A stretch of DNA of 31,152 bases from a virus, in UHGV virus genome UHGV-1981267, one strand, 5' to 3'. Positions 10,393 through 30,628 of the stretch are shown in pieces (position 1 is the first letter of the stretch; each line of letters opens with the position of its first letter). Below the pieces are notes generated by a model that was not told the origin of the DNA, did not search any database, and saw only the letters and a list, made by a program, of their open reading frames with translations. Both the position numbers and the translations under genes were made by a program.

Positions 10393-10434
10393 ACATAATT
10401 GCCCATTATACGCGCGTATAATGGGGAATTATGT
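10393..10434. other. telRL: Telomere resolution site (telRL-like palindrome with telO core)
   Basis: 42-bp palindrome ACATAATTGCCCATTATACGC|GCGTATAATGGGGAATTATGT with one mismatch. The central 22 bp CCATTATACGCGCGTATAATGG matches my recollection of N15 telO. Immediately upstream of telN. Confidence 0.8.
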
Positions 10435-10604: not shown

Positions 10605-12512
10605 ATGAGCAAAGTAAAAATCGGTGAATTAATAAACTCACTTGTTAGCGATGTTGAGTCAATAGATAACTCTGACCGTCCTCAAGGGGAGAAAACAAAA
10701 AAAATAAAGGCTGTTGCATTAAAATTTAAAAATGCATTATTTAATGACAAGCGAAAGTTTAGGGGGAAAGGATTAGAAAAAAGAATTACAGCCAACACAT
10801 TCAATGCCTATATGAGCAGGGCCAGAAAACGGTTTGATGATAAACTTCATCATAGCTTTGAAAAAAATATACATCGCCTATCTGAAAAGTATCCTTTATA
10901 TAATGAGGAGCTATTGTCATGGCTTTCTCTACCTGCTGCCGATATTCGCCAGAGAATGTCAGCTTTACAGGCAAAATTAAAATTAATTCTCCCTCTATCA
11001 GAAGATTTATCTAATATCAGAATTGGCGATAACAAAAGTCATAACAAGTTATTGAAATTATCAAATAAATATAAAGAGTGGCAATTCGCCATTTCTGATT
11101 TAACTAGCGATAACTGGAAAGATAAGCGCGATTATTTATATAAATTACTACAGCAAGGATCTGCCTTACTTGAGGAGTTGAATCAGCTAAAAGTTAACCA
11201 TGAGATTCTCTATCATCTTCAACTAAGCCCTGCCGAACGTGCATCTATCCAGCAACGATGGGCGGACGTTCTGCACAATAAAAAACGTAACGTGGTGGTC
11301 ATTGATTACCCTAAATATATGCAAGCTATTTACGATATTATAAATAGCCCTGCTACATTAAATAATCTAAACACTCGTTCAGGTATGGCTCCTTTGGCAT
11401 TTGCACTTGCTGCATTGTCAGGAAGACGAATGATTGAGATTATGTATCAAGGTACATTTACTGTTTCTGGTAAGTATACCGTTGATTTTTTAGGCCAAGC
11501 TAAAAAAAGAACTTCTGATGATATAACCAGAAAAATATATACATTATGCGAAGCAAAAACATTTGTTTATTTAATAAATGTACTTCGCTCATGCCCAGCA
11601 GCATCTGATTTTGATGATGTCGTTAAAGGTTATGGAGATAACGACACACGCTCTGAAAACGGACGTATTAATGCCATATTAGCAAAGGCTTTTAACCCGT
11701 GGGTTAAATCATTTTTCAAAGATGACCGCCGTGTTTATAAAGATAGTCGTGCTATTTATGCCCGTATTGCGTATGAAATGTTTTTCCGCGTAGATCCTCG
11801 TTGGAAAAACGTAGATGAAGATGTTTTCTTTATGGAAATTTTAGGCCATGACGATGAAAACACTCAATTACACTATAAGCAATTCAAGCTGGCCAACTTC
11901 TCAAAGACATGGAGGCCAAATACTGGAAACGAAAATACCAGGCTGGAAGCATTGCAGCAGCTTGATGACGAAATGCCTGGATTCGCCAGAGGAGATGCCG
12001 GGGTTCGTCTGCATAACACAGTTAAGCAGCTGGTAGAGCAGGACCCCTCTATAAAAATCACGAACAGCACTCTAAGAGCGTTCAAATTTAGCCCAACAAT
12101 GATTAGTCGATACCTAGAATTTGCTGCTGATGCTCTGGGGCAATTTGTTGGCGAAAACGGACAATGGCAACTGAAAATAGATACTCCAGAAATCGTTATG
12201 CCTGACGAAGAAGAACTGGAAGCAATACCTGAACTGGCGGATGAATTATCAGAGGATGACGATCTGGATGACGACGAAATTGAGATAGAGGAAGAGGAGG
12301 AGGAAGAGGAAGAGGAAGAGAGCGTAGAAGAACAGCAACCGCCTGCACCTTCTTCGCCTGTATCTAAGCCGGTATTTAAGCCGGTGAGAAATATTGGTGA
12401 TGGCTCATACGTTGTTGAGTTTCATTATAATGGCCAGAATTATGCGTGGTCCGGCAGTGCAAACAGCCCCATGTCAGCAATGCAGTTAGCATGGCTGACA
12501 TATTTCGGTTAA
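10605..12512 (+). CDS. telN: Protelomerase (TelN-like telomere resolvase)
   Basis: 635 aa. N-terminus MSKVKIGELIN... matches recalled N15 TelN. Strong SD AGGAGAGG. Adjacent to the tel site. C-terminus carries an acidic poly-Glu tract. Confidence 0.9.
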   Translation: MSKVKIGELINSLVSDVESIDNSDRPQGEKTKKIKAVALKFKNALFNDKRKFRGKGLEKRITANTFNAYMSRARKRFDDKLHHSFEKNIHRLSEKYPLYNEELLSWLSLPAADIRQRMSALQAKLKLILPLSEDLSNIRIGDNKSHNKLLKLSNKYKEWQFAISDLTSDNWKDKRDYLYKLLQQGSALLEELNQLKVNHEILYHLQLSPAERASIQQRWADVLHNKKRNVVVIDYPKYMQAIYDIINSPATLNNLNTRSGMAPLAFALAALSGRRMIEIMYQGTFTVSGKYTVDFLGQAKKRTSDDITRKIYTLCEAKTFVYLINVLRSCPAASDFDDVVKGYGDNDTRSENGRINAILAKAFNPWVKSFFKDDRRVYKDSRAIYARIAYEMFFRVDPRWKNVDEDVFFMEILGHDDENTQLHYKQFKLANFSKTWRPNTGNENTRLEALQQLDDEMPGFARGDAGVRLHNTVKQLVEQDPSIKITNSTLRAFKFSPTMISRYLEFAADALGQFVGENGQWQLKIDTPEIVMPDEEELEAIPELADELSEDDDLDDDEIEIEEEEEEEEEEESVEEQQPPAPSSPVSKPVFKPVRNIGDGSYVVEFHYNGQNYAWSGSANSPMSAMQLAWLTYFG

Positions 12513-12683: not shown

Positions 12684-13457
12684 CTATTTATTGGTGATTT
12701 CTGCTGGCTTTAGCTGCGCGGATAACTGTTCAAGTTTTTGAACTGCCAGTTCAAAATGCGCGGGTAACGCCTTTTCCAGATCAGAGTTAATATCGGTGAT
12801 GGGTAAATCACCACACGACATACTCCGCCTACCCCCACGAACAACATCACGCAACAACTCTCGTTCATACGTGCGCATGTTCCCCAATGCCGACTCAGCA
12901 GCCGTCAAAATCCGGCGCAGTTCTGCCGTAATTGCTGGCAAATCATCAACCGTTATGGGGTTCGGGGATGGATTACGACACGCCCGACGCAAAGCTAACC
13001 ATACACCGCTAATCCAGGCATTTCGGTACTGAAAACTTTGTGCTATATCGTTAATCAGCCCTCGCAGATACTCTTTCTGCCTCCAGTTCAACGGCTCCGC
13101 TGCTCGCATTGGCTCAGGCTCGATGTAAACGTACTCTCCATTTTTGCGAATAGAGGGCAAGACTTCGTTCGTTACCCATTTGCGAAACCGCCAAGCTGTT
13201 GTGCCTTGCTTCACCGCGTCACGGCAGCGGAGAATGAGCGTGTAAAGACCTGATTCACTGATGATATTGGCTTGACCTTGACGGCCTATGTTAAACATAG
13301 ATCGCTCATCTTCATCTAATCGAGCGATAGCTTGTGTGACATTCTGGATGCTTAAAGCATTGCAAATATCATTCGCCACAAACCACGGATCGCCGTTAAT
13401 CATCACTACACGTACCTGATGCTCTTCCTGAAAGGAAAAGACTGCTAACGCGCTCAT
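12684..13457 (-). CDS. Antirepressor (Bro-N / AntA-like N-terminal domain)
   Basis: 257 aa. N-terminal FSFQ...VRVVMINGDPWFVANDICNAL is a typical Bro-N motif. Last gene of an immA-like operon. Confidence 0.8.
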   Translation of the reverse strand: MSALAVFSFQEEHQVRVVMINGDPWFVANDICNALSIQNVTQAIARLDEDERSMFNIGRQGQANIISESGLYTLILRCRDAVKQGTTAWRFRKWVTNEVLPSIRKNGEYVYIEPEPMRAAEPLNWRQKEYLRGLINDIAQSFQYRNAWISGVWLALRRACRNPSPNPITVDDLPAITAELRRILTAAESALGNMRTYERELLRDVVRGGRRSMSCGDLPITDINSDLEKALPAHFELAVQKLEQLSAQLKPAEITNK

Positions 13458-13869: not shown

Positions 13870-14070
13870 GTCGTGCTACCACCAGAGTTCTCACGCTCTT
13901 GAATGGTGGTAGCCCAAGCGGGGGTGAGAATACCGGCAAACGAAGAAACCGGCCTGACCGAAGTCAGCCCCGCCTGAGCCACCATAAATCGGATATGCGC
14001 AGGTATATACACACAAAAAAACACGCTGGCGCGTGTTGTGCGCTTCGTTTATCCGGGTTCTCACGCCCGG
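13870..14070 (-). ncRNA. Structured leader / candidate small regulatory RNA of the immA operon (P4 CI / N15 CA RNA-like)
   Basis: On the transcribed strand: GUGAGAAC (from 14057..14064), then UUCUCACCCC (13921..13930), then GUGAGAAC (13887..13894) inside a 10-bp stem (13875..13913). The middle element is complementary to both others. Confidence 0.4.
14012..14035 (-). terminator. Intrinsic terminator inside the immA leader
   Basis: On the minus strand: CACGC-GCCA-GCGUG hairpin followed by UUUUUUUGUGU. Confidence 0.5.
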
Positions 14071-14145
14071 CTGCGGAATTTGCCGCAGCGGAGTAACTTT
14101 ACCGTCAAAACGACGCACACGTCAATAATTTGCAAAGACATTTTA

Positions 14146-14165
14146 CCCCGTGACCAGTCACGGGG
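14146..14165. promoter_or_regulatory. 20-bp palindrome CCCCGTGAC-CA-GTCACGGGG between the upstream gene cluster and the immA promoter region
   Basis: Near-perfect inverted repeat. Could be an operator or a terminator for the gene ending at 14227. Candidate TTGACG -35 elements lie just downstream on the minus strand (about 14100..14130). Confidence 0.4.
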
Positions 14166-15270: not shown

Positions 15271-15462
15271 TTACTCCCCGTTCACCGAAAAATCACGATA
15301 GAAACGTTTCCACATACGATAAGTCTGCGCGAGTTGTTCACCACGAAACATCGCCTTCCTGGCCTTCATGTTTTCCTTGTGAGACTTTCGATCTATGAAC
15401 CAAAACCATTGCTGGAACACACAAAGCAAGAGACACAAAGATAATATCCACTGATTACCCAT
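15271..15462 (-). CDS. Possible small membrane protein
   Basis: Internal Met of track ORF 15271..15579. Hydrophobic segment WILSLCLLLCVFQQWFWFI. Overlaps repA stop by a few nt. Confidence 0.3.
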   Translation of the reverse strand: MGNQWILSLCLLLCVFQQWFWFIDRKSHKENMKARKAMFRGEQLAQTYRMWKRFYRDFSVNGE

Positions 15463-18400
15463 AGAAAGCGCCCTGCTCTTCGTAGCTGCATGGGCTATTC
15501 CCGGTAATGTATTCACGTAACCGCCGCAGTTCATTGCTGGATAAGTGATCCATGAACTCTGTGAGGTACAGAGATGCAAACGTCATAGCTATGCTGGCTG
15601 ATGACCATGATGACATAGTGGCCAGCTCCTCACCGGAAAGCGCACTCATCGCCCAGGACTCAGGTACAACCACTGGCAACACAGCCAAAGCCTCAGAAAT
15701 TACTGAATGAGGGGCGTTTTGAACCTGCTCGTTTGTGGATCGCGTTTTATCATCCATATATATATTGAGATCCAAATCGCGATCCATTTCGATGGCGGTC
15801 TTCTCGGCTTTACGCGTTTTCAGGGTTAGGCCATCTTTCTGACGCTGAGCAAGAATATCCAGCATAAATGCCGCTGATTCAGGCTCAACAAAACGCAAGG
15901 TTGGACGCTTATCGCCGTCTCTGCCGCGACGTTTACCTGTTTTAAGGCCAAGAGAGTCGCAAATGTTTTTAAACAACGCTTCCGGCACTTTAGGCTTCCC
16001 TTTTGGCGTCATAAAACCACCAATGTGCAGAACGTTATTCAACAGGTCACGGCGTTCGGCTGTCATGAGGTTATCTCGAGCGAATTTGAGACGCTCCTGA
16101 GTCGCCTCGCCGGTCATAGTCTCAGGGTTGATACCGCAGTCGATAAAGTACTGCCGGAGAGTTGCTGATTTAAGCGCATAGAAACCGCGCGCCCCGACTT
16201 CAACAGTAGGAGTAGCTTTTACCTTGTAGTCGATTATTCCAAGGAATTTAGTTTTAAAGACATCATCAGCCTGCTCGCGAGTCATCGCGGTCACTACAAA
16301 ATATTGCCACTGTCCCGCCTGACGGTATGCGTAGGTAAAATTGATGGCTGCTTCTTCCCGGTCGTAACGACGAGCTGTTACCTCATCTAAAAGCATTGTT
16401 TCATAGCGGCGAATTTTGTCTCGAGCACCATCGAAATAGAATTTCAGCGTGCCTTCTTCAACCGGTAGTTTCAGTTCGTTCTCAATATCCCAGCGGACAA
16501 GTTTTGCTTGTTCTTCAAGCGTCAGCGCGCGTTTTTTTAGCAGTTCTTCACGCTCTGATTCTTGTGGAGTTTCTGTATTGAGATGCAGATCCAGTGTCTG
16601 TTCCCACACAATATCCCGCGCTTCTTTACGCAGATCTTTACCGATATCATTCGCAGCATAATCGGTGGCCAGCGGCGATACCTTATAACCGTCGCTGTGC
16701 ATGATGCAGATCATGTTGCTGGCGTAGTCGTTACGCGCAGACGCTTCAATTGCGGCTGCTTTAATTTTCATCCTGGTAAAGTCGGTATTGGCCACCCCCA
16801 TTGATATACGGTCGCCATCGAAAACGACATCCGTCAGTTCACCGTTCATGCCTGCGGTAGCAAGCAATGCCTGGGCGAATGCTCGTTCTATTTTTTGCGG
16901 GTCAGTTTCACGTTTTGCGCGAGCTTTATCAAAGCCGATAATAAATTCTTTTGCTGTACGGTCGCGGCGTAGCATTTGCACTGCGTCGCTGGGTACAACT
17001 TCACCACAGAACATGCCGAAATGACGGTCAAAATGTTTTTGCTCAATTGACACACCGGATGAAATAGACGGGCTATAAATCAGGCCGTCGTATTTTTTGA
17101 CCATCTTTTTCGGTTGATTGGTAAATGCTTCAACTTCTGGCTCTGGTTTGTTTTTCTGGTTTACACACAGAAATTTCTTACCAGGAAAATGCATTCTCAG
17201 GGTGGCGGTCACATCTTCTGCAAAGGTGGAGCTGTCGGTGGCCAACATGATTTTTTCGCCATTCGATACAGCTTTCACCACCTCGGTCATAATGCGATCT
17301 TTTTCTGTATAAAAAACCCGGATTGGCTCACCTGTTTCGCGGTTGCGAAGATCAACAGGTAATTCAATTACGTGGATCTGCAGCCATGCCGGTAAACCTA
17401 GTTCTTCACGGCGTTTCATAGCCAGTTCAGCTAGGTCAACCAGCAGATCGTTCGCATCAGCATCCACCATTATTGGGTGTTGTTCCGTTCTGGCCAGCGC
17501 GTCAATTAACGTATTGAATACAGCCACCGGGTTTTCCATAGCCCGACCGGAAAGAACGGCACGTAGCCCTTGCGTGGCCTCGTCAAAGCCAAAATAGTCG
17601 TGCTGGCGCATCAATGGTTGCCAGCAGTTTTTAACAATCGAGTTTATGCAGATGGTCAGTTTACTGGCGTATGGAGCCATTTCCTGATAGCCAGGGTCCT
17701 GATAGTGCAGGATATCGGCTTTTACACCTTTTCCTTCTGTCATCATTTCCCACAGGCCACCAATAAGGGAAACACGGTGAGCAACAGAGATACCACGTTC
17801 TGAGCTATGCATTAAAGGTCGTAACAATCCAGTAGATTTGCCGGAACCCATACCAGCACGAACGATGACTATCCCCTGTAGTGATTGCACATACTTCAGG
17901 ACGTCATCGGTCATTACCGAAGTTTCAAAACGCTTATAGGTGATATGTTGAGGACGTTTATTGGGATCAGTTATTCGTTCGCTGAATGAGCGCGGAGCCT
18001 GGGCAATACGGCACTTTTTATTCAGGCGACGGGCAATGTGGTCTTTTACCGTAGCGCGATAGATATTTTCCAGCCCAATTTCACGCAGGACGATGCAGAA
18101 CATGTTAAATAAGTCTGACGGACTGTTAGGAACCGGACAGGTTAGCATGCCAATATCCACTGCTCTCAGCAGCTCTTTGGCAAAAGTACGACGGTTATCC
18201 CGCTTAATTGTCTTCAGGCGGTTGAGCGTCAGAGATAGCAAATCAGTGCCAGTTTTCAGGCGGTTTGCAGTTGCAAACAGTTGACGTGCTGTTTCACGAA
18301 GTCCACGTAGTTTGTGCAGGTCGTTGAAGTCACTGCACTCCATTTGCGGATCGTCTTCAAAAGTTGGATAGACGCAGCGGACATCGTTGAATTTCGATAA

Positions 18401-19450
18401 GATTTCATAGCCAGTCCGCAGGCCGGTATTCCCTTTTCCTTCTGTAGCTGATTTCCGGTCATTATCCAGTGCGCAGGTGATTTTTGCCGCCGGGTACATG
18501 TTTACCAGTTGTTCCACAACATGAACCATGTTGTTAGCGGATACAGCGACAACCACAGCGTCAAAGCGTTTATCTTTTTTCGTGGCAAGCCAGATGGATG
18601 CACCAGTAGCAAAACCTTCTGTAACAGCGATGTTTTGCGCCCCTTTCAGCTCACCGATAACAAAGCAGGCACCGACGAAATCGCCGCTGGTTACGGCGCT
18701 GGTCTGGTATTTTCCACCTTGTTTGTCGATTCGCTGCCAACCAACAATACGACCATCGTAACGACCGTCCAGGTGAGCCAGAGGGATAGACATATACGTG
18801 GTTGGCCCCCTGCTCCATTTTGCGCTGTCGTGACTGGTCACGCGACGCACATCACACGAATTAAAAACGTCACGAATACCTTTTTTAATCGCATATGGCC
18901 ATGAGCCGTCTTCTGCAGGAGCATGTTCCCAAGCACTGTGGAATGCCAGCCATCCCAGCAAACGTTCATGGTCCATTTGGTTGTTTTTCAGGTCATTAAT
19001 TCGTTTTTGTTCTTCACGGCGACGACGTGCTTCGGCCTGACGTTCTATTCTTGCCCGTTCTTCTTCCGGTTGTGCGACCACGGTCGCATTATTCCGTTGT
19101 TGCTCACGGCGATATTCAGAAAACAGGAAGGAGAAACCGCTCCATGAGCCAGCATCGCTGCCTTTATGGACGAAGTTAATGAACGGGTAATCAATCCCTT
19201 TGCTGTGTTCCAGCCGGGAGTAAATTTCTACGCGTCCTTTGAGGCTCTTCTCGAGAGCTTCTGGAGATGTTTTATTGTATGAAGAGTAACGCTCAACACC
19301 CCCGCGAGGGTTGAGTTGGATGTTGTCGGAACAGGCAGACCAGTTGATACCAGCCATCTGTGCCAGCTCGGTTAGTTCATCCCGTGCTGCTTCAATTAGC
19401 GAGAACGGATCGCTGCCAAAGCGATCCGCATAGAAATCGTTTAATGTCAT
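15455..19450 (-). CDS. repA: Replication protein RepA (primase plus helicase, N15 RepA-like)
   Basis: 1331-aa ORF. Walker A GMGSGKS in the central helicase region. Size and position next to cB as in N15. Confidence 0.9.
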   Translation of the reverse strand: MTLNDFYADRFGSDPFSLIEAARDELTELAQMAGINWSACSDNIQLNPRGGVERYSSYNKTSPEALEKSLKGRVEIYSRLEHSKGIDYPFINFVHKGSDAGSWSGFSFLFSEYRREQQRNNATVVAQPEEERARIERQAEARRRREEQKRINDLKNNQMDHERLLGWLAFHSAWEHAPAEDGSWPYAIKKGIRDVFNSCDVRRVTSHDSAKWSRGPTTYMSIPLAHLDGRYDGRIVGWQRIDKQGGKYQTSAVTSGDFVGACFVIGELKGAQNIAVTEGFATGASIWLATKKDKRFDAVVVAVSANNMVHVVEQLVNMYPAAKITCALDNDRKSATEGKGNTGLRTGYEILSKFNDVRCVYPTFEDDPQMECSDFNDLHKLRGLRETARQLFATANRLKTGTDLLSLTLNRLKTIKRDNRRTFAKELLRAVDIGMLTCPVPNSPSDLFNMFCIVLREIGLENIYRATVKDHIARRLNKKCRIAQAPRSFSERITDPNKRPQHITYKRFETSVMTDDVLKYVQSLQGIVIVRAGMGSGKSTGLLRPLMHSSERGISVAHRVSLIGGLWEMMTEGKGVKADILHYQDPGYQEMAPYASKLTICINSIVKNCWQPLMRQHDYFGFDEATQGLRAVLSGRAMENPVAVFNTLIDALARTEQHPIMVDADANDLLVDLAELAMKRREELGLPAWLQIHVIELPVDLRNRETGEPIRVFYTEKDRIMTEVVKAVSNGEKIMLATDSSTFAEDVTATLRMHFPGKKFLCVNQKNKPEPEVEAFTNQPKKMVKKYDGLIYSPSISSGVSIEQKHFDRHFGMFCGEVVPSDAVQMLRRDRTAKEFIIGFDKARAKRETDPQKIERAFAQALLATAGMNGELTDVVFDGDRISMGVANTDFTRMKIKAAAIEASARNDYASNMICIMHSDGYKVSPLATDYAANDIGKDLRKEARDIVWEQTLDLHLNTETPQESEREELLKKRALTLEEQAKLVRWDIENELKLPVEEGTLKFYFDGARDKIRRYETMLLDEVTARRYDREEAAINFTYAYRQAGQWQYFVVTAMTREQADDVFKTKFLGIIDYKVKATPTVEVGARGFYALKSATLRQYFIDCGINPETMTGEATQERLKFARDNLMTAERRDLLNNVLHIGGFMTPKGKPKVPEALFKNICDSLGLKTGKRRGRDGDKRPTLRFVEPESAAFMLDILAQRQKDGLTLKTRKAEKTAIEMDRDLDLNIYMDDKTRSTNEQVQNAPHSVISEALAVLPVVVPESWAMSALSGEELATMSSWSSASIAMTFASLYLTEFMDHLSSNELRRLREYITGNSPCSYEEQGAFYG
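15736..15786. other. Candidate replication origin element inside the repA 3' region
   Basis: Inverted repeat TGGATCGCG ... CGCGATCCA flanking the AT tract CATATATATATT. Three GATC sites within about 50 bp. Confidence 0.35.
19073..19088. other. sopC-like centromere palindrome (inside repA coding sequence)
   Basis: TGCGACCACGGTCGCA: 7-bp inverted arms with 2-bp spacer. One base per arm different from the F sopC core TGGGACC-AC-GGTCCCA as recalled. Confidence 0.7.
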
Positions 19451-21312: not shown

Positions 21313-21558
21313 ATGTTCAGGAAACCGTCGAAGCCAGAATTAAGGTATTCGGGGGTAAGAAATGAATATGTTATCTGGTGTCCAACTTGTGGTTACAGGA
21401 CACGACCAGATAGTAATAAGCAGTCTGTAATTGCCGATTGGTATTTATCAAATCAGCCAGGTAATAAGCATATAGAAAATCTTTGGATTAAGCGTTACTT
21501 GGAAATCAGAGAGGGTGCGACCGTGGTCGCACAAGAAAATGAAAATAACGCCATTTAA
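21313..21558 (+). CDS. Small zinc-ribbon protein
   Basis: Internal ATG of track ORF 21238..21558. CPTCGY motif. Contains a sopC-like site at its 3' end. Confidence 0.4.
   Translation: MFRKPSKPELRYSGVRNEYVIWCPTCGYRTRPDSNKQSVIADWYLSNQPGNKHIENLWIKRYLEIREGATVVAQENENNAI
21516..21531. other. sopC-like centromere palindrome
   Basis: TGCGACCGTGGTCGCA. Confidence 0.7.
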
Positions 21559-23745: not shown

Positions 23746-24072
23746 ATGGCGCTGACACCGGCAGAACGGCAAAGGAGACGCAGGGAACGGTTGAAGAAGG
23801 AAGGCACATCAAGACGGGACTGGATTCTAGAACCTGACGAGTTACGTATGTTGGGGGAAATTTGTGTATTGCGTAGACCAGGGCGAGTTCCATATTCGGA
23901 GAACGAAGTCATTGGTTTGCTGATCAGGAAAAACTATAAGGAGCTGCAGAAGCAGCTATCTACTACTTGCCCGCGATGTGGTCAAAAAATGCCTGTTTCA
24001 GAATGCATTTTTGATGGCGAAGGGTCATGCCACCTTACAACCACGAGGCTGAAACTTGCGCTCAAAGCGTGA
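23746..24072 (+). CDS. Hypothetical basic protein with zinc-ribbon-like CPRCG...C...C
   Basis: 108-aa ORF. SD AGGAGG upstream. Arg-rich N-terminus. Confidence 0.5.
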   Translation: MALTPAERQRRRRERLKKEGTSRRDWILEPDELRMLGEICVLRRPGRVPYSENEVIGLLIRKNYKELQKQLSTTCPRCGQKMPVSECIFDGEGSCHLTTTRLKLALKA

Positions 24073-24090
24073 CTGGTCACGGAGGGATAA

Positions 24091-24661: not shown

Positions 24662-24949
24662 TTAATAAACAGCGCGAATATCGATGGCTGCGCCGCAGGC
24701 ATGAGCATATTTAGCCAAAGTTTTCATACTTGCCCCTAAAGGATTGCTTTCCAGGCGGCTGATGGCTGACGGTCGTAACCCCATTCGTTCAGCCAGAGCT
24801 GATTTCGTTAAACCTGCTCTTTCCCTCATTTCGTATAACATTTCGACCATCTCCAGCTCTTTGTCGGCCTCTTCATATCCTTTGACGGCTTCTGGAGTGT
24901 TGAGGAGTTTTTCTTTTACTTCGTTAAACGGGATGCCTTTCGCTTTCAT
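24662..24949 (-). CDS. HTH antitoxin (HigA / Xre-like)
   Basis: 95 aa. HTH LTKSALAERMGLRPSAISRLES. Immediately downstream of, and overlapping, the toxin gene. Confidence 0.8.
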   Translation of the reverse strand: MKAKGIPFNEVKEKLLNTPEAVKGYEEADKELEMVEMLYEMRERAGLTKSALAERMGLRPSAISRLESNPLGASMKTLAKYAHACGAAIDIRAVY

Positions 24950-25260
24950 CAGTTCATCTCCTTCAGGCGAGTTCTGGCGATTTCGATAGCCTTCACCGGT
25001 GTTTTCTGTGTCTTTTTTACAAATGCATGCAATAGATAAATTTCGTTACCAGTCGCGTAGACGTACAGCGTTCTTGCGATGTTTTTATCCCCTACTCGTA
25101 GTTCAAAAAGCCCTCCACCTATTACACGGCTATGGGGCATCTTCAGTTTGTTGCCTTCTTTCTCCAGTCGCTCAATTAATCTGGCCATGCGACCTCGCAA
25201 ATCATCTGGTAGTTCAAGCAGTTCATCCAGTGCTGCAGGGTGGGTTATCACGTTAAACAT
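24949..25260 (-). CDS. RelE/ParE-superfamily toxin (HigB / Gp49-like)
   Basis: ATG at 25260 with SD GGAGG. Motifs GGGLFELRVGDK..IARTLYVYATGNEIYLLHAFVKKTQKTP typical of this toxin family. Track ORF extends to 25305. Confidence 0.8.
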   Translation of the reverse strand: MFNVITHPAALDELLELPDDLRGRMARLIERLEKEGNKLKMPHSRVIGGGLFELRVGDKNIARTLYVYATGNEIYLLHAFVKKTQKTPVKAIEIARTRLKEMN

Positions 25261-25894: not shown

Positions 25895-25910
25895 TGCGAC
25901 CACGGTCGCA
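25895..25910. other. sopC-like centromere palindrome
   Basis: TGCGACCACGGTCGCA, within the longer palindrome CTGTGCGACCACGGTCGCACAG. Confidence 0.7.
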
Positions 25911-26110: not shown

Positions 26111-27232
26111 ATGCGCATCGCCGGGTTAGCTTACCCAGGCAAAAAAATAATAGCTATGTTCAAAACCACTAATATTCATGGCGCGCAACTCGTTTGCGCA
26201 GATTCTCTGCAATTTATCAAAACCATCCCTGATAACTCGGTCAATTTGATTGCAACAGACCCACCATACTTCGGCGTAAAGGCTAACGCATGGGATAACC
26301 AGTGGGATAGCGATGCTGACTTTTTGGGGTGGATTGATGAATTTTTGGCAGAATTTTGGCGGATATTGGCCCCTAATGGCAGCCTGTATATGTTTACCGG
26401 CTCTCGCCTTGCGTCAAAAATTGAATTATTAACTCGCGACCGTTTCAATGTTCTGAACCATATCATTTGGGCTAAACCCAGTGGTATGTGGCGCGGTTGT
26501 CATAAAGAAAGTTTAAGGGCTTATTTTCCTGCCACTGAAAGAATATTATTTGCAGAGCATTACGGCGCGTCAGGTTATGCTAAAGGTCAGTCAGGTTATG
26601 CTTCAAAATGTGCAGATTTAAGAAAAAATATTTTTTCTCCACTAATTGATGCTTTTTCGCTGGCTCGCCGTCAGTTAGATATATCAGCCGCAGACATTAA
26701 TTCAGCAACAGGAAAGCAGATGTGTTCGCACTGGTTTTCTTATTCGCAGTGGCGGCTTCCATCATTAAGTGATTTTAATAAACTATGCGAATTATTTCGC
26801 AGGAAGGCAGATTCACTCGGTGTCCCGTGTCCATATCCTTTTAATGTTGATTATTCAGAACATGAAAAGCGTTATAGCGATCTGAAATTGCGTTATGAGG
26901 AAGTAAAGAAGCAGTATGATGATTTGAAGGCTCAGTATGAAAATTTGCGCCGCCCATTTCATGTTACTGCTGATGTACCTTATACCGATGTATGGGAGTT
27001 TCCTCCTGTGCAATATTATCCTGGCAAGCACCCATGTGAAAAACCTGCAGCGATGATGGAACATATTATAAAAAGTAGTTCCCGCCCCGGAGATATCGTT
27101 GCCGATTTCTTTATGGGATCAGGCTCTACTATTAAAGCCGCGCTGAAGTTAGGTCGTCAGGCAATCGGTATTGAGATTGAGGGTGAACGTTATCTTCAGA
27201 CAGTTGATGAAGTGAAAAAGTTATTTGAGTAA
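26111..27232 (+). CDS. DNA methyltransferase, likely N6-adenine (beta-class amino-MTase)
   Basis: DPPY motif near the N-terminus (LIATDPPYFG). FxGxG-type AdoMet motif near the C-terminus (DFFMGSGST). Alternative start ATG 26156. Confidence 0.8.
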   Translation: MRIAGLAYPGKKIIAMFKTTNIHGAQLVCADSLQFIKTIPDNSVNLIATDPPYFGVKANAWDNQWDSDADFLGWIDEFLAEFWRILAPNGSLYMFTGSRLASKIELLTRDRFNVLNHIIWAKPSGMWRGCHKESLRAYFPATERILFAEHYGASGYAKGQSGYASKCADLRKNIFSPLIDAFSLARRQLDISAADINSATGKQMCSHWFSYSQWRLPSLSDFNKLCELFRRKADSLGVPCPYPFNVDYSEHEKRYSDLKLRYEEVKKQYDDLKAQYENLRRPFHVTADVPYTDVWEFPPVQYYPGKHPCEKPAAMMEHIIKSSSRPGDIVADFFMGSGSTIKAALKLGRQAIGIEIEGERYLQTVDEVKKLFE

Positions 27233-28934: not shown

Positions 28935-28950
28935 TGCGACCGTGGTCGCA
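28935..28950. other. sopC-like centromere palindrome
   Basis: TGCGACCGTGGTCGCA. Confidence 0.7.
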
Positions 28951-29154: not shown

Positions 29155-29170
29155 TGCGACCGTGGTCGCA
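29155..29170. other. sopC-like centromere palindrome
   Basis: TGCGACCGTGGTCGCA. Confidence 0.7.
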
Positions 29171-30055: not shown

Positions 30056-30178
30056 CCAGTTTTGTTTTGCAGAACATCCTCAACTAAAAGCTTATAGAAA
30101 GAGAGCCTGAGATATTTTTTCTGTCTCTCGTAGTTGTTTATTTTTCTCGAACAGGCTTACAACTTACAGGATATAAAC

Positions 30179-30628
30179 ATGCAAGAAGAAGCAAATAAAA
30201 TTCTTGTTGATTTATTGAAGAAGGCCAGCGATGGAATTGATTCCGCCATTGCATTCAGTCAGGCTCAGATTCCGGATGTTGTTCATCAGTTGCTGGTATG
30301 GAATATGGTTGATAGCCTGATTAAAACATTAATAGCCATTTCAACAATCCCGCTGGTTTTCTGGTTTATGAAAAAACAGTACCAAAAAGTTGAAATTGGT
30401 ATATTCGATAATGAAGGATGGTCATGGGAGAAGGGAAAGCCTAAATACAAACCGACTATGATTTGGGAAAGTAACGGTGAGATTAGTTTTCTTATCTTAC
30501 CATTAGCAGCAGTTTTTGTTCTGTGGGTAAGTTTTATTATTGCTGTAGTAACCAATATGACATGGTTAAAAATCTGGTTGGCACCTAAGTTATATCTAAT
30601 CGAATACGCAGCATCACTAATTAAATAG
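30179..30628 (+). CDS. Small membrane protein (two predicted TM helices); second gene of the cargo
   Basis: ATG 30179 within track ORF 30134..30628. Hydrophobic segments LIKTLIAISTIPLVFWF and ISFLILPLAAVFVLWVSFIIAVV. Confidence 0.5.
   Translation: MQEEANKILVDLLKKASDGIDSAIAFSQAQIPDVVHQLLVWNMVDSLIKTLIAISTIPLVFWFMKKQYQKVEIGIFDNEGWSWEKGKPKYKPTMIWESNGEISFLILPLAAVFVLWVSFIIAVVTNMTWLKIWLAPKLYLIEYAASLIK

What the first reader, a model, noticed from the sequence alone, without database searches (positions are those of the whole stretch)
15736..15786. Candidate origin element inside the repA 3' coding region
Inverted repeats TGGATCGCG and CGCGATCCA flank an AT tract (CATATATATATT), with three GATC sites within about 50 bp, all inside the 3' part of repA. 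I recall the N15 ori being mapped within the 3' part of repA, so this element is a plausible ori core.
Basis: partly seen in the sequence, partly recalled or inferred. Interest (0 to 1): 0.45.

Follow-up and report, generated by a model that had tools for sequence, protein, structure and literature searches.

The report
Replication origin inside phage repA gene
A 47-bp symmetric DNA signal (GATC-bearing repeats around an easily melted AT tract) inside the replication gene of an N15-like linear phage-plasmid is very probably its replication origin, the counterpart of the origin already known in phage N15, so it is real but expected.

Summary
The window is an N15-like telomere phage-plasmid: protelomerase, SopAB, and a 1331-aa RepA at 15455-19450 on the minus strand. 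The inverted repeat and the GATC triple are each unremarkable by chance. Four other results are not.

- TGGATC clusters here (simulated P about 4e-4).
- The AT tract is the least stable duplex in all of repA.
- The 90 bp at 15707-15799 show the strongest suppression of synonymous change in the 1331-codon gene.
- Nucleotides are more conserved than the gene average, while amino acids are less conserved.

The same architecture sits 280-380 nt before the repA stop in every relative examined down to about 34% identity. These include N15, phiKO2, PY54 and a Salmonella plasmid; a looser version occurs in Vibrio. In 19 of 20 lineages the outer GATCs are exactly 43 bp apart, and the inner GATCs are placed symmetrically in differing codon frames.

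An old N15 record annotates repeats at the homologous spot, and held papers place the N15 ori within repA.

Best reading: this is the ori core, where RepA binds, melts the AT tract and primes. It is a new member of a known kind. Function was not tested directly. The GATC geometry suggests Dam/SeqA control, which is unproven.

The parts
15455..19450 (-). repA: multifunctional replication initiator (primase, helicase and origin-binding protein), 1331 aa. It contains the element in its 3' part.
   Evidence: ORF. Family matches: Pfam Toprim_3 at residues 274-383 and Herpes_ori_bp at 522-674; NCBIfam CyRepA1 at 525-1034; PHROG 4913 'replication' over the full length. About 75% aa identity to N15 gp37.
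15738..15784 (.). 47-bp dyad unit, the proposed ori core. It runs from outer GATC to outer GATC, 43 bp start to start, with the AT tract in the middle.
   Evidence: It is the only GATC-N39-GATC in the window and in the whole N15 genome. The 43-bp spacing is invariant in 19 of 20 RepA lineages.
15736..15748 (+). Left arm of the inverted repeat, TGGATCGCGTTTT, with TGGATC motif copy 1 and the GATC at 15738.
15745..15777 (.). AT-rich tract (TTTTATCATCCATATATATATTGAGATCCAAAT), the proposed unwinding element.
   Evidence: It holds the least stable 12-, 20- and 30-bp duplex stretches of the whole repA gene, and is in the top 0.07% of the 31-kb window at 12-20 bp. The same is true of the homologous tract in N15, in Salmonella and Vibrio plasmids, and in about three quarters of the IMG/VR relatives that carry the element.
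15769..15774 (-). Inner TGGATC motif (copy 2), with the GATC at 15769, which is 12 bp from the right outer GATC.
   Evidence: An inner GATC at +12/13 is present in 14 of 20 lineages.
15774..15786 (+). Right arm of the inverted repeat, AAATCGCGATCCA, with TGGATC motif copy 3 on the minus strand and the GATC at 15781.
15707..15799 (.). Zone of suppressed synonymous change, marking the likely full extent of the cis-acting element.
   Evidence: Observed/expected synonymous differences are 0.13-0.35 here against 1.0 gene-wide, rank 1 of about 1350 sliding windows at 15 and 25 codons. There is a sharp edge at 15799 and a gradual return by about 15707.

Best explanation
This is the core of the plasmid-prophage replication origin (ori), embedded in the coding sequence of its own initiator gene repA.

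Proposed mechanism:
1. RepA, a fused primase-helicase-origin-binding protein, recognises the GATC-bearing repeats. These are of TGGATC type and are arranged with dyad symmetry over 47 bp.
2. RepA probably binds as two oppositely oriented units.
3. It opens the intervening AT tract, which is the weakest duplex in the gene, loads itself as helicase and lays down primers.
4. Forks then leave in both directions. The leftward fork reaches the telomere 5.35 kb away, where the protelomerase resolves it.

What is shown here:
- The element exists.
- It is under selection at the DNA level, independently of the protein it encodes.
- Its geometry is conserved across distant RepA lineages.
- It is the positional homologue of repeats annotated in N15.

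What is inferred: that RepA binds these repeats, that the AT tract is where melting starts, and that initiation is bidirectional. The last point is taken from N15 literature.

A further inferred layer is that the conserved GATCs are Dam targets, so methylation state and SeqA binding to hemimethylated sites may time or limit re-initiation.
For: Context:
- The window carries a protelomerase with TelK domains, SopA/SopB, a CB-like repressor and Q.
- RepA has primase and helicase/origin-binding signatures.

Homology with N15:
- The element aligns with N15 30143-30193.
- U63085 annotates three repeat_regions at that spot.
- Held papers place the N15 ori within repA and report bidirectional initiation there.

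Selection on the DNA:
- The lowest synonymous divergence in all 1331 codons is at 15707-15799.
- Against N15, the element is 82% identical in nucleotides (gene 70%) but 59% identical in amino acids (gene 75%).

Geometry:
- The densest GATC cluster of the 3' 1.5 kb lies 279-378 nt before the stop in all 55 distinct relatives.
- The outer GATCs are exactly 43 bp apart in 19 of 20 lineages, down to about 34% aa identity.
- The inner GATCs are at mirror positions (+6/+37, +12/13 and +30/31) and fall in different codon frames between lineages.
- PY54, Salmonella and Vibrio show the architecture even though the encoded peptide cannot be aligned there.

Melting:
- The AT tract is the least stable stretch of repA here and in N15.
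- TGGATC clustering has a simulated P of about 4e-4.

Alternatives that failed:
- No sigma-70-like promoter or terminator.
- No Rfam family.
- No DnaA box.
- No credible overlapping ORF.
- The centromere palindromes lie elsewhere.
Against: - No experiment on this phage exists, and none can be done here.
- The papers that map the N15 and PY54 origins could not be read. The claim that the mapped ori coincides with this exact 50-90 bp rests on position, on the U63085 annotation and on my memory of those papers.
- The full N15 genome record carries no rep_origin feature.
- The orientation of the flanking bases is not uniform. In PY54 the two TGGATC copies are direct rather than inverted, so a simple 'inverted RepA boxes' model may be too neat.
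- The most distant RepA relatives, at about 27% identity with a non-homologous C-terminus, lack the element.
- GC skew in the window follows gene orientation and gives no independent origin signal.
- The single-sequence structure model was too poor to say whether the encoded peptide is a disordered linker.
Confidence: 0.8

Rival explanations
1. The element is a conserved cis-acting DNA site with a role other than the start of replication. It could be a copy-control or handcuffing site for RepA, a SeqA/Dam-dependent regulatory site, or a host-factor site, with the true initiation point elsewhere in repA.
For: The DNA-level constraint and GATC geometry show function but do not identify it. GATC pairs on the same helical face at set spacings are what SeqA prefers (PMC2691817). 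The held literature says only 'within repA'.
Against: The element contains the least stable duplex of the gene both here and in N15, which is what an unwinding element needs. No other segment of repA combines constraint with an AT tract. The second constraint peak, at 18812-18844, is a GC-rich palindrome. From memory, the N15 and PY54 mapping points to the 3' part of repA.
Confidence: 0.11
2. The inverted repeat acts at the RNA level as a hairpin in repA mRNA. It could be a processing, pausing or attenuation signal affecting RepA or the downstream genes.
For: The single strand can fold, with dG -11.8 kcal/mol and z = -2.4 against shuffles.
Against: - The arms show no compensatory change. Only the TGGATC(G) core is shared, and the flanking arm bases mismatch in the Klebsiella-type and N15 lineages.
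- In PY54 the motifs are direct repeats.
- There is no T-run and no terminator-like site.
- There is no Rfam family.
- Conservation of a palindromic Dam site at fixed spacing is a DNA feature.
Confidence: 0.04
3. There is no cis function. The repeat, the GATCs and the AT run are by-products of the amino-acid sequence and of chance.
For: The inverted repeat alone is ordinary, ranking 21st of 28 in the window. The GATC triple alone has P = 0.19.
Against: - Synonymous sites are the most constrained in the gene, while amino acids are less conserved than average.
- The GATCs persist although the neighbouring codons and even the reading frame differ.
- The architecture is retained where the peptide cannot be aligned.
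Confidence: 0.02
4. It is the partition (centromere) site known to lie within repA of N15-type plasmids.
For: PMC2847241 states that an N15 centromere site lies within repA.
Against: The centromere palindromes TGCGACC-NN-GGTCGCA are at 19073 (5' part of repA), 21516, 25895, 28935 and 29155. The phiKO2 record annotates the repA-internal copy as the partition site. The element shares no sequence with them.
Confidence: 0.01

Closest known systems
ori of linear plasmid-prophage N15 (within repA/gene 37; Ravin et al. 2003; Mardanov & Ravin 2006)
   Same: - Same gene and same position: 257-307 nt before the stop in N15 and 281-331 nt here.
- Same distance from telRL: 5.37 kb against 5.35 kb.
- Same GATC offsets (0/12/43) and an AT tract that is the stability minimum of repA.
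- 82% nucleotide identity in the element.
- U63085 annotates the repeats.
   Different: - The arms differ. Here they are TGGATCGCG/CGCGATCCA (9/9, extending to 12/13), while in N15 only TGGATCG/CGATCCA match.
- The AT tract is ATATATATAT here and ATATAGATAT in N15.
- The encoded peptide differs (NIYMDDKTRST against NIDIHGNPRSK).
- The exact experimentally mapped limits in N15 could not be checked, because the papers are not held.
PY54 origin (212 bp within the 3' portion of repA; Ziegelin et al. 2005, from memory)
   Same: Four GATCs at offsets 0/13/31/43 around GATATAGATATA, 243-290 nt before the repA stop. The initiator family is the same.
   Different: - 37% aa identity in this region, and the peptide cannot be aligned.
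- The second GATC is in another codon frame.
- The TGGATC copies are direct, and the inverted repeat is GATCTGATAT/ATATAAGATC instead.
- The coincidence with the mapped 212 bp was not verifiable here.
E. coli oriC unwinding element (13-mers GATCTnTTnTTTT; Dam/SeqA sequestration)
   Same: GATC immediately followed by AT-rich DNA (GATCTCAATATATAT on the coding strand), several GATCs packed around the melting region, and spacings compatible with same-face binding (PMC2691817).
   Different: There are no DnaA boxes within about 850 bp. The initiator is a phage primase-helicase, not DnaA. The unit is a single 47-bp dyad rather than a 245-bp multi-site origin. From memory, PY54 replication is independent of DnaA, DnaB and DnaG.
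Herpes simplex oriS with UL9 origin-binding helicase
   Same: Initiator sites in opposed orientation flank a short AT spacer, and the initiator is itself a helicase. RepA residues 522-674 match Pfam Herpes_ori_bp (E = 4e-6).
   Different: This is an analogy of layout only. The site sequences are unrelated, the domain match is short and weak, and RepA also carries its own primase.

Membership tests
N15/PY54-type intragenic origin of telomere phage-plasmids | Lies inside the 3' part of the repA gene of a protelomerase-encoding phage-plasmid | tested here: met
   The element is at codons 1222-1239 of 1331. TelK-domain protelomerase at 10605-12512 and SopAB are present.
N15/PY54-type intragenic origin of telomere phage-plasmids | Positional and sequence homology to the N15 element | tested here: met
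   The codon alignment places it on N15 30143-30193, with identical GATC offsets 0/12/43 and 82% nt identity. Repeat_regions are annotated there in U63085.
N15/PY54-type intragenic origin of telomere phage-plasmids | Easily melted AT-rich tract flanked by repeats | tested here: met
   Least stable 12/20/30-bp stretches of repA. The flanking TGGATC repeats cluster with a simulated P of about 4e-4.
N15/PY54-type intragenic origin of telomere phage-plasmids | DNA sequence conserved beyond what the protein requires | tested here: met
   Synonymous observed/expected of 0.13-0.35, rank 1 in the gene. GATCs are kept across different frames and residues.
N15/PY54-type intragenic origin of telomere phage-plasmids | Coincides with the experimentally delimited minimal ori of N15 or PY54 | tested here: inconclusive
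   Held papers say only 'within repA'. The mapping papers are not held, and no rep_origin feature exists in the N15, PY54 or phiKO2 records.
N15/PY54-type intragenic origin of telomere phage-plasmids | Fragment supports replication when RepA is supplied in trans | not testable with these tools
   Requires a two-plasmid origin test.
DnaA-dependent, Dam/SeqA-controlled origins (oriC, P1 oriR type) | DnaA boxes next to the unwinding element | tested here: not met
   No TTATCCACA with one mismatch or fewer lies nearer than 14897. The window-wide count equals chance.
DnaA-dependent, Dam/SeqA-controlled origins (oriC, P1 oriR type) | Cluster of GATC sites in or around the unwinding element | tested here: met
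   Three GATCs in 47 bp here and 3-5 in relatives. This is the tightest GATC triple of the window and of the whole N15 genome.
Iteron-type plasmid origins | Array of tandem direct repeats of about 17-22 bp | tested here: not met
   No direct-repeat family with more than two copies occurs in 15400-16200. Only the 6-nt TGGATC recurs.
SopC/ParS-type centromere | SopB-type palindrome TGCGACC-NN-GGTCGCA | tested here: not met
   Five such palindromes lie elsewhere, at 19073, 21516, 25895, 28935 and 29155, and none is in the element.

The most novel reading that the evidence does not exclude
The origin may be a methylation-reading dyad. The bases actually selected would be the Dam sites themselves: two outer GATCs held exactly 43 bp apart and inner GATCs at mirror positions, kept across lineages regardless of reading frame. 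RepA loading, SeqA sequestration, or both would then depend on the methylation state of this 47-bp unit, giving telomere phage-plasmids a once-per-cycle or copy-number control. This could also explain why GATC is otherwise depleted in these genomes. As far as I could check, this geometry and its conservation down to about 34% RepA identity have not been described. I could not read the primary N15 and PY54 origin papers to be sure.
Probability: 0.3. Interest if true: 0.5.

Novelty: new member of a known kind. Interest (0 to 1): 0.3.

Why it matters
- For this phage-plasmid it pins the origin to about 90 bp inside repA. That is useful for annotation, for building mini-replicons or linear vectors of the pJAZZ type from a second incompatibility group, and for interpreting repA mutations, since changes that are silent in the protein may hit the ori.
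- More generally, the comparison gives a compact, testable definition of the origin for the whole N15/phiKO2/PY54 RepA family. The definition is GATC-N39-GATC with mirrored inner GATCs around the weakest duplex of the gene, 280-380 nt before the stop.
- It raises a concrete question: does Dam methylation gate initiation in these elements?
- It does not change the known picture of how telomere phages replicate.

Tried and rejected
- **Literature.** Eight full-text searches and several look-ups were made. The papers that map the N15 and PY54 origins are not held. Only general statements ('ori within repA') were found.
- **GC skew.** It follows gene orientation and is uninformative for the origin.
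- **GATC clustering as sole evidence.** Not significant (P = 0.19).
- **Inverted repeat as sole evidence.** Ordinary.
- **Hairpin or cruciform as the selected feature.** Rejected, because the arms do not covary and PY54 has direct motif copies.
- **Promoter or terminator.** None found.
- **Known RNA family.** None at the element.
- **Overlapping ORF.** Only mechanical ORFs of 35-52 aa on the plus strand.
- **DnaA boxes.** None.
- **Centromere.** Those sites lie elsewhere.
- **Structure prediction of the RepA C-terminus.** The single-sequence model had mean pLDDT 40. Its lowest-confidence stretch includes the element-encoded residues, but the model is too poor to use.
- **Genome-contig scan.** It yielded only 3 loci, two of them probably contaminant contigs in unrelated genera.
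- **Large protein-database searches.** Not used, because the phage, plasmid and IMG/VR collections already gave relatives down to 27% identity.

Full report
**What the window is.** The 31-kb window comes from an N15-like telomere phage-plasmid.
- The stretch around the finding is 98.5% identical to Escherichia phage PhiR46_1 and 99.9% to an E. coli plasmid record. It is about 76% identical to a large group of Klebsiella phage-plasmids and about 66% to N15 and phiKO2.
- The window encodes a protelomerase with all four TelK domains (10605-12512), SopA and SopB, a CB-like repressor, a Bro-N antirepressor, Q and a DNA methylase.
- repA is the 1331-codon ORF at 15455-19450 on the minus strand. It matches Toprim and helicase/origin-binding profiles and the NCBIfam CyRepA1 family.

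**Check of the observation.**
- TGGATCGCG lies at 15736-15744 and CGCGATCCA at 15778-15786, extendable to 13-nt arms with 12/13 complementary.
- CATATATATATT lies at 15755-15766.
- GATC starts at 15738, 15769 and 15781.
- The element occupies codons 1222-1239 of repA.

Taken singly, the named features are weak.
- The window holds 28 comparable inverted repeats, and this one ranks 21st.
- Three GATCs this close have a simulated probability of 0.19.

Three other measures make the place exceptional.
- TGGATC occurs eight times in the window and three of those are here, with a simulated P of about 4e-4.
- The AT tract is the least stable duplex stretch of the whole repA gene at 12, 20 and 30 bp.
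- The place shows the strongest constraint on synonymous sites in the gene, described next.

**Selection on the DNA, not on the protein.** I collected 40 distinct full-length repA genes: IMG/VR loci plus N15, phiKO2, PY54, KpLi5 and MStein. I built a codon alignment and compared observed with expected synonymous differences.
- With 15- and 25-codon windows, the minimum of the whole gene is at window 15713-15799, with an observed/expected ratio of 0.13-0.35.
- The upper edge at 15799 is sharp, and the ratio returns gradually to normal by about 15707.
- Against N15, the element is 82% identical in nucleotides, compared with 70% for the gene. It is only 59% identical in amino acids, compared with 75% for the gene.
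- No credible overlapping ORF, promoter, terminator or Rfam family explains this.

**Conserved geometry.** I used an alignment of RepA C-terminal halves to fetch more distant relatives.
- In all 55 distinct sequences, the densest GATC cluster of the last 1.5 kb of repA lies 279-378 nt before the stop.
- In 19 of 20 lineages, down to about 34% amino-acid identity, the two outer GATCs are exactly 43 bp apart.
- The inner GATCs sit at mirror positions, +6 with +37 or +12/13 with +30/31, around an AT-rich centre. That centre is the least stable 20-mer of 2.7 kb in about three quarters of the IMG/VR relatives that carry the element.
- The inner GATCs fall in different codon frames in different lineages, and the residues encoded next to the outer GATCs vary (R/H/L/P after Asp; R/G before Ser). 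The tetranucleotide itself is therefore what is kept.
- PY54 (37% identity, peptide not alignable here) has GATCs at 0/13/31/43 around GATATAGATATA. A Salmonella plasmid has the same pattern.
- A Vibrio chagasii plasmid at 29% identity, next to a protelomerase gene, has GTGATCCACG/CGTGGATCA arms around its weakest AT tract, at a 46-bp spacing.
- Relatives at about 27% identity, with a different C-terminus, lack the element.
- In both the window and the complete N15 genome there is exactly one GATC-N39-GATC. In N15 it is also the tightest GATC triple of the 46-kb genome.

**Link to the known origin.** The element aligns with N15 30143-30193.
- The N15 element is 5.37 kb from the telRL cut site. 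The window element is 5.35 kb from the centre of the telRL-type palindrome at 10393-10434.
- The early N15 repA record U63085 annotates three repeat_regions exactly on these GATC repeats.
[quoted passage not shown] They also state that RepA initiates bidirectional replication within repA (PMC2847241).
- From memory only: Mardanov & Ravin 2006 place the N15 ori in the 3' part of repA. Ziegelin et al. 2005 define a 212-bp PY54 origin in the 3' portion of repA that works with RepA in trans and without DnaA, DnaB or DnaG. Neither paper is held, so the exact overlap with the mapped fragments is unverified.

**Most likely mechanism.** RepA binds the GATC-bearing repeats of the 47-bp dyad, probably as two opposed units. 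It melts the central AT tract, loads as helicase and primes, and forks leave in both directions.
- Shown here: DNA-level selection, conserved geometry, the stability minimum, and homology to the N15 repeats.
- Inferred: binding, melting and directionality.
- The layout resembles HSV oriS with its UL9 helicase. RepA residues 522-674 match Pfam Herpes_ori_bp at E = 4e-6. The GATC-plus-AT-rich motif recalls the oriC 13-mers. There are no DnaA boxes nearby and no iterons, so these are analogies and not memberships.
- GATC, rather than its flanks, is the invariant. SeqA prefers hemimethylated GATC pairs on one helical face at set spacings (PMC2691817). Dam/SeqA gating of initiation is therefore a reasonable but untested extra layer.

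**Rivals.**
- *A conserved cis site with another role,* such as copy control or SeqA/host-factor binding, cannot be excluded without experiments. It is less likely because the element holds the only AT-rich stability minimum under constraint.
- *An RNA hairpin* is unlikely. The arms do not covary, and in PY54 the motifs are direct repeats.
- *Pure coding constraint or chance* is contradicted.
- *The repA-internal centromere* is a different palindrome at 19073.

**Verdict.** This is the orthologue of the known intragenic origin of N15-type linear plasmid-prophages in a so far uncharacterised relative, so it is a new member of a known kind and of modest interest. The fixed 43-bp GATC dyad, conserved across the family, is the one aspect that may add something new.

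Noticed in passing
window 10393-10434: Near-perfect 42-bp palindrome ACATAATTGCCCATTATACGC|GCGTATAATGGGGAATTATGT, 170 bp upstream of the protelomerase gene (10605-12512). It looks like an intact telRL/telO telomere-resolution site, so the window represents the uncut (phage or circular-assembly) form rather than a prophage end (compare the N15 repeat_region at 24775-24830).
   Followed up: partly
window 18829-18842 (inside repA, codons about 203-208); also 14149-14162, 24068-24081, and a degenerate copy at 25044-25057: A second palindrome family, CGTGAC(CA/TG)GTCACG, has 3 perfect copies against 0.18 expected by chance. The repA copy is the second strongest peak of synonymous-site constraint and is invariant in all N15-like repA genes but absent from PY54. 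N15 has three copies at syntenic places: 28549, 33236 and 39268. The function is unknown. It could be an operator for an unidentified regulator or another kind of dispersed site.
   Followed up: partly
window 19073-19088, 21516-21531, 25895-25910, 28935-28950, 29155-29170: Five dispersed palindromes TGCGACC(AC/GT)GGTCGCA, against 0.56 expected for the relaxed pattern. They match the site that the phiKO2 record annotates as a putative plasmid partitioning site inside repA. These are the SopB-type centromere sites, and one lies in the 5' part of repA.
   Followed up: partly
window 13902-14102, minus strand: Rfam matches to the C4 antisense RNA (13902-13989), isrK (14016-14089) and the c4 a1/b1 target (14050-14102). 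They lie upstream of the Bro-N antirepressor gene (12684-13457). This is a P1/N15-type antisense-RNA-controlled antirepressor (immC-like) locus.
   Followed up: no
whole window; methylase gene 26111-27232 (+): GATC is strongly under-represented, with 61 found against 112 +/- 11 expected. The window also encodes an N6/N4 DNA methyltransferase of unknown specificity. Whether the two facts are related, and whether the methylase acts on the origin GATCs, was not examined.
   Followed up: no
L006 and L007 (genome-contig hits): Near-identical repA fragments (80-93% aa identity) occur on contigs labelled Limoniibacter endophyticus (an alphaproteobacterium) and Microbacterium barkeri (an actinobacterium). 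For an enterobacterial phage-plasmid, contamination of those assemblies is the likeliest explanation.
   Followed up: no
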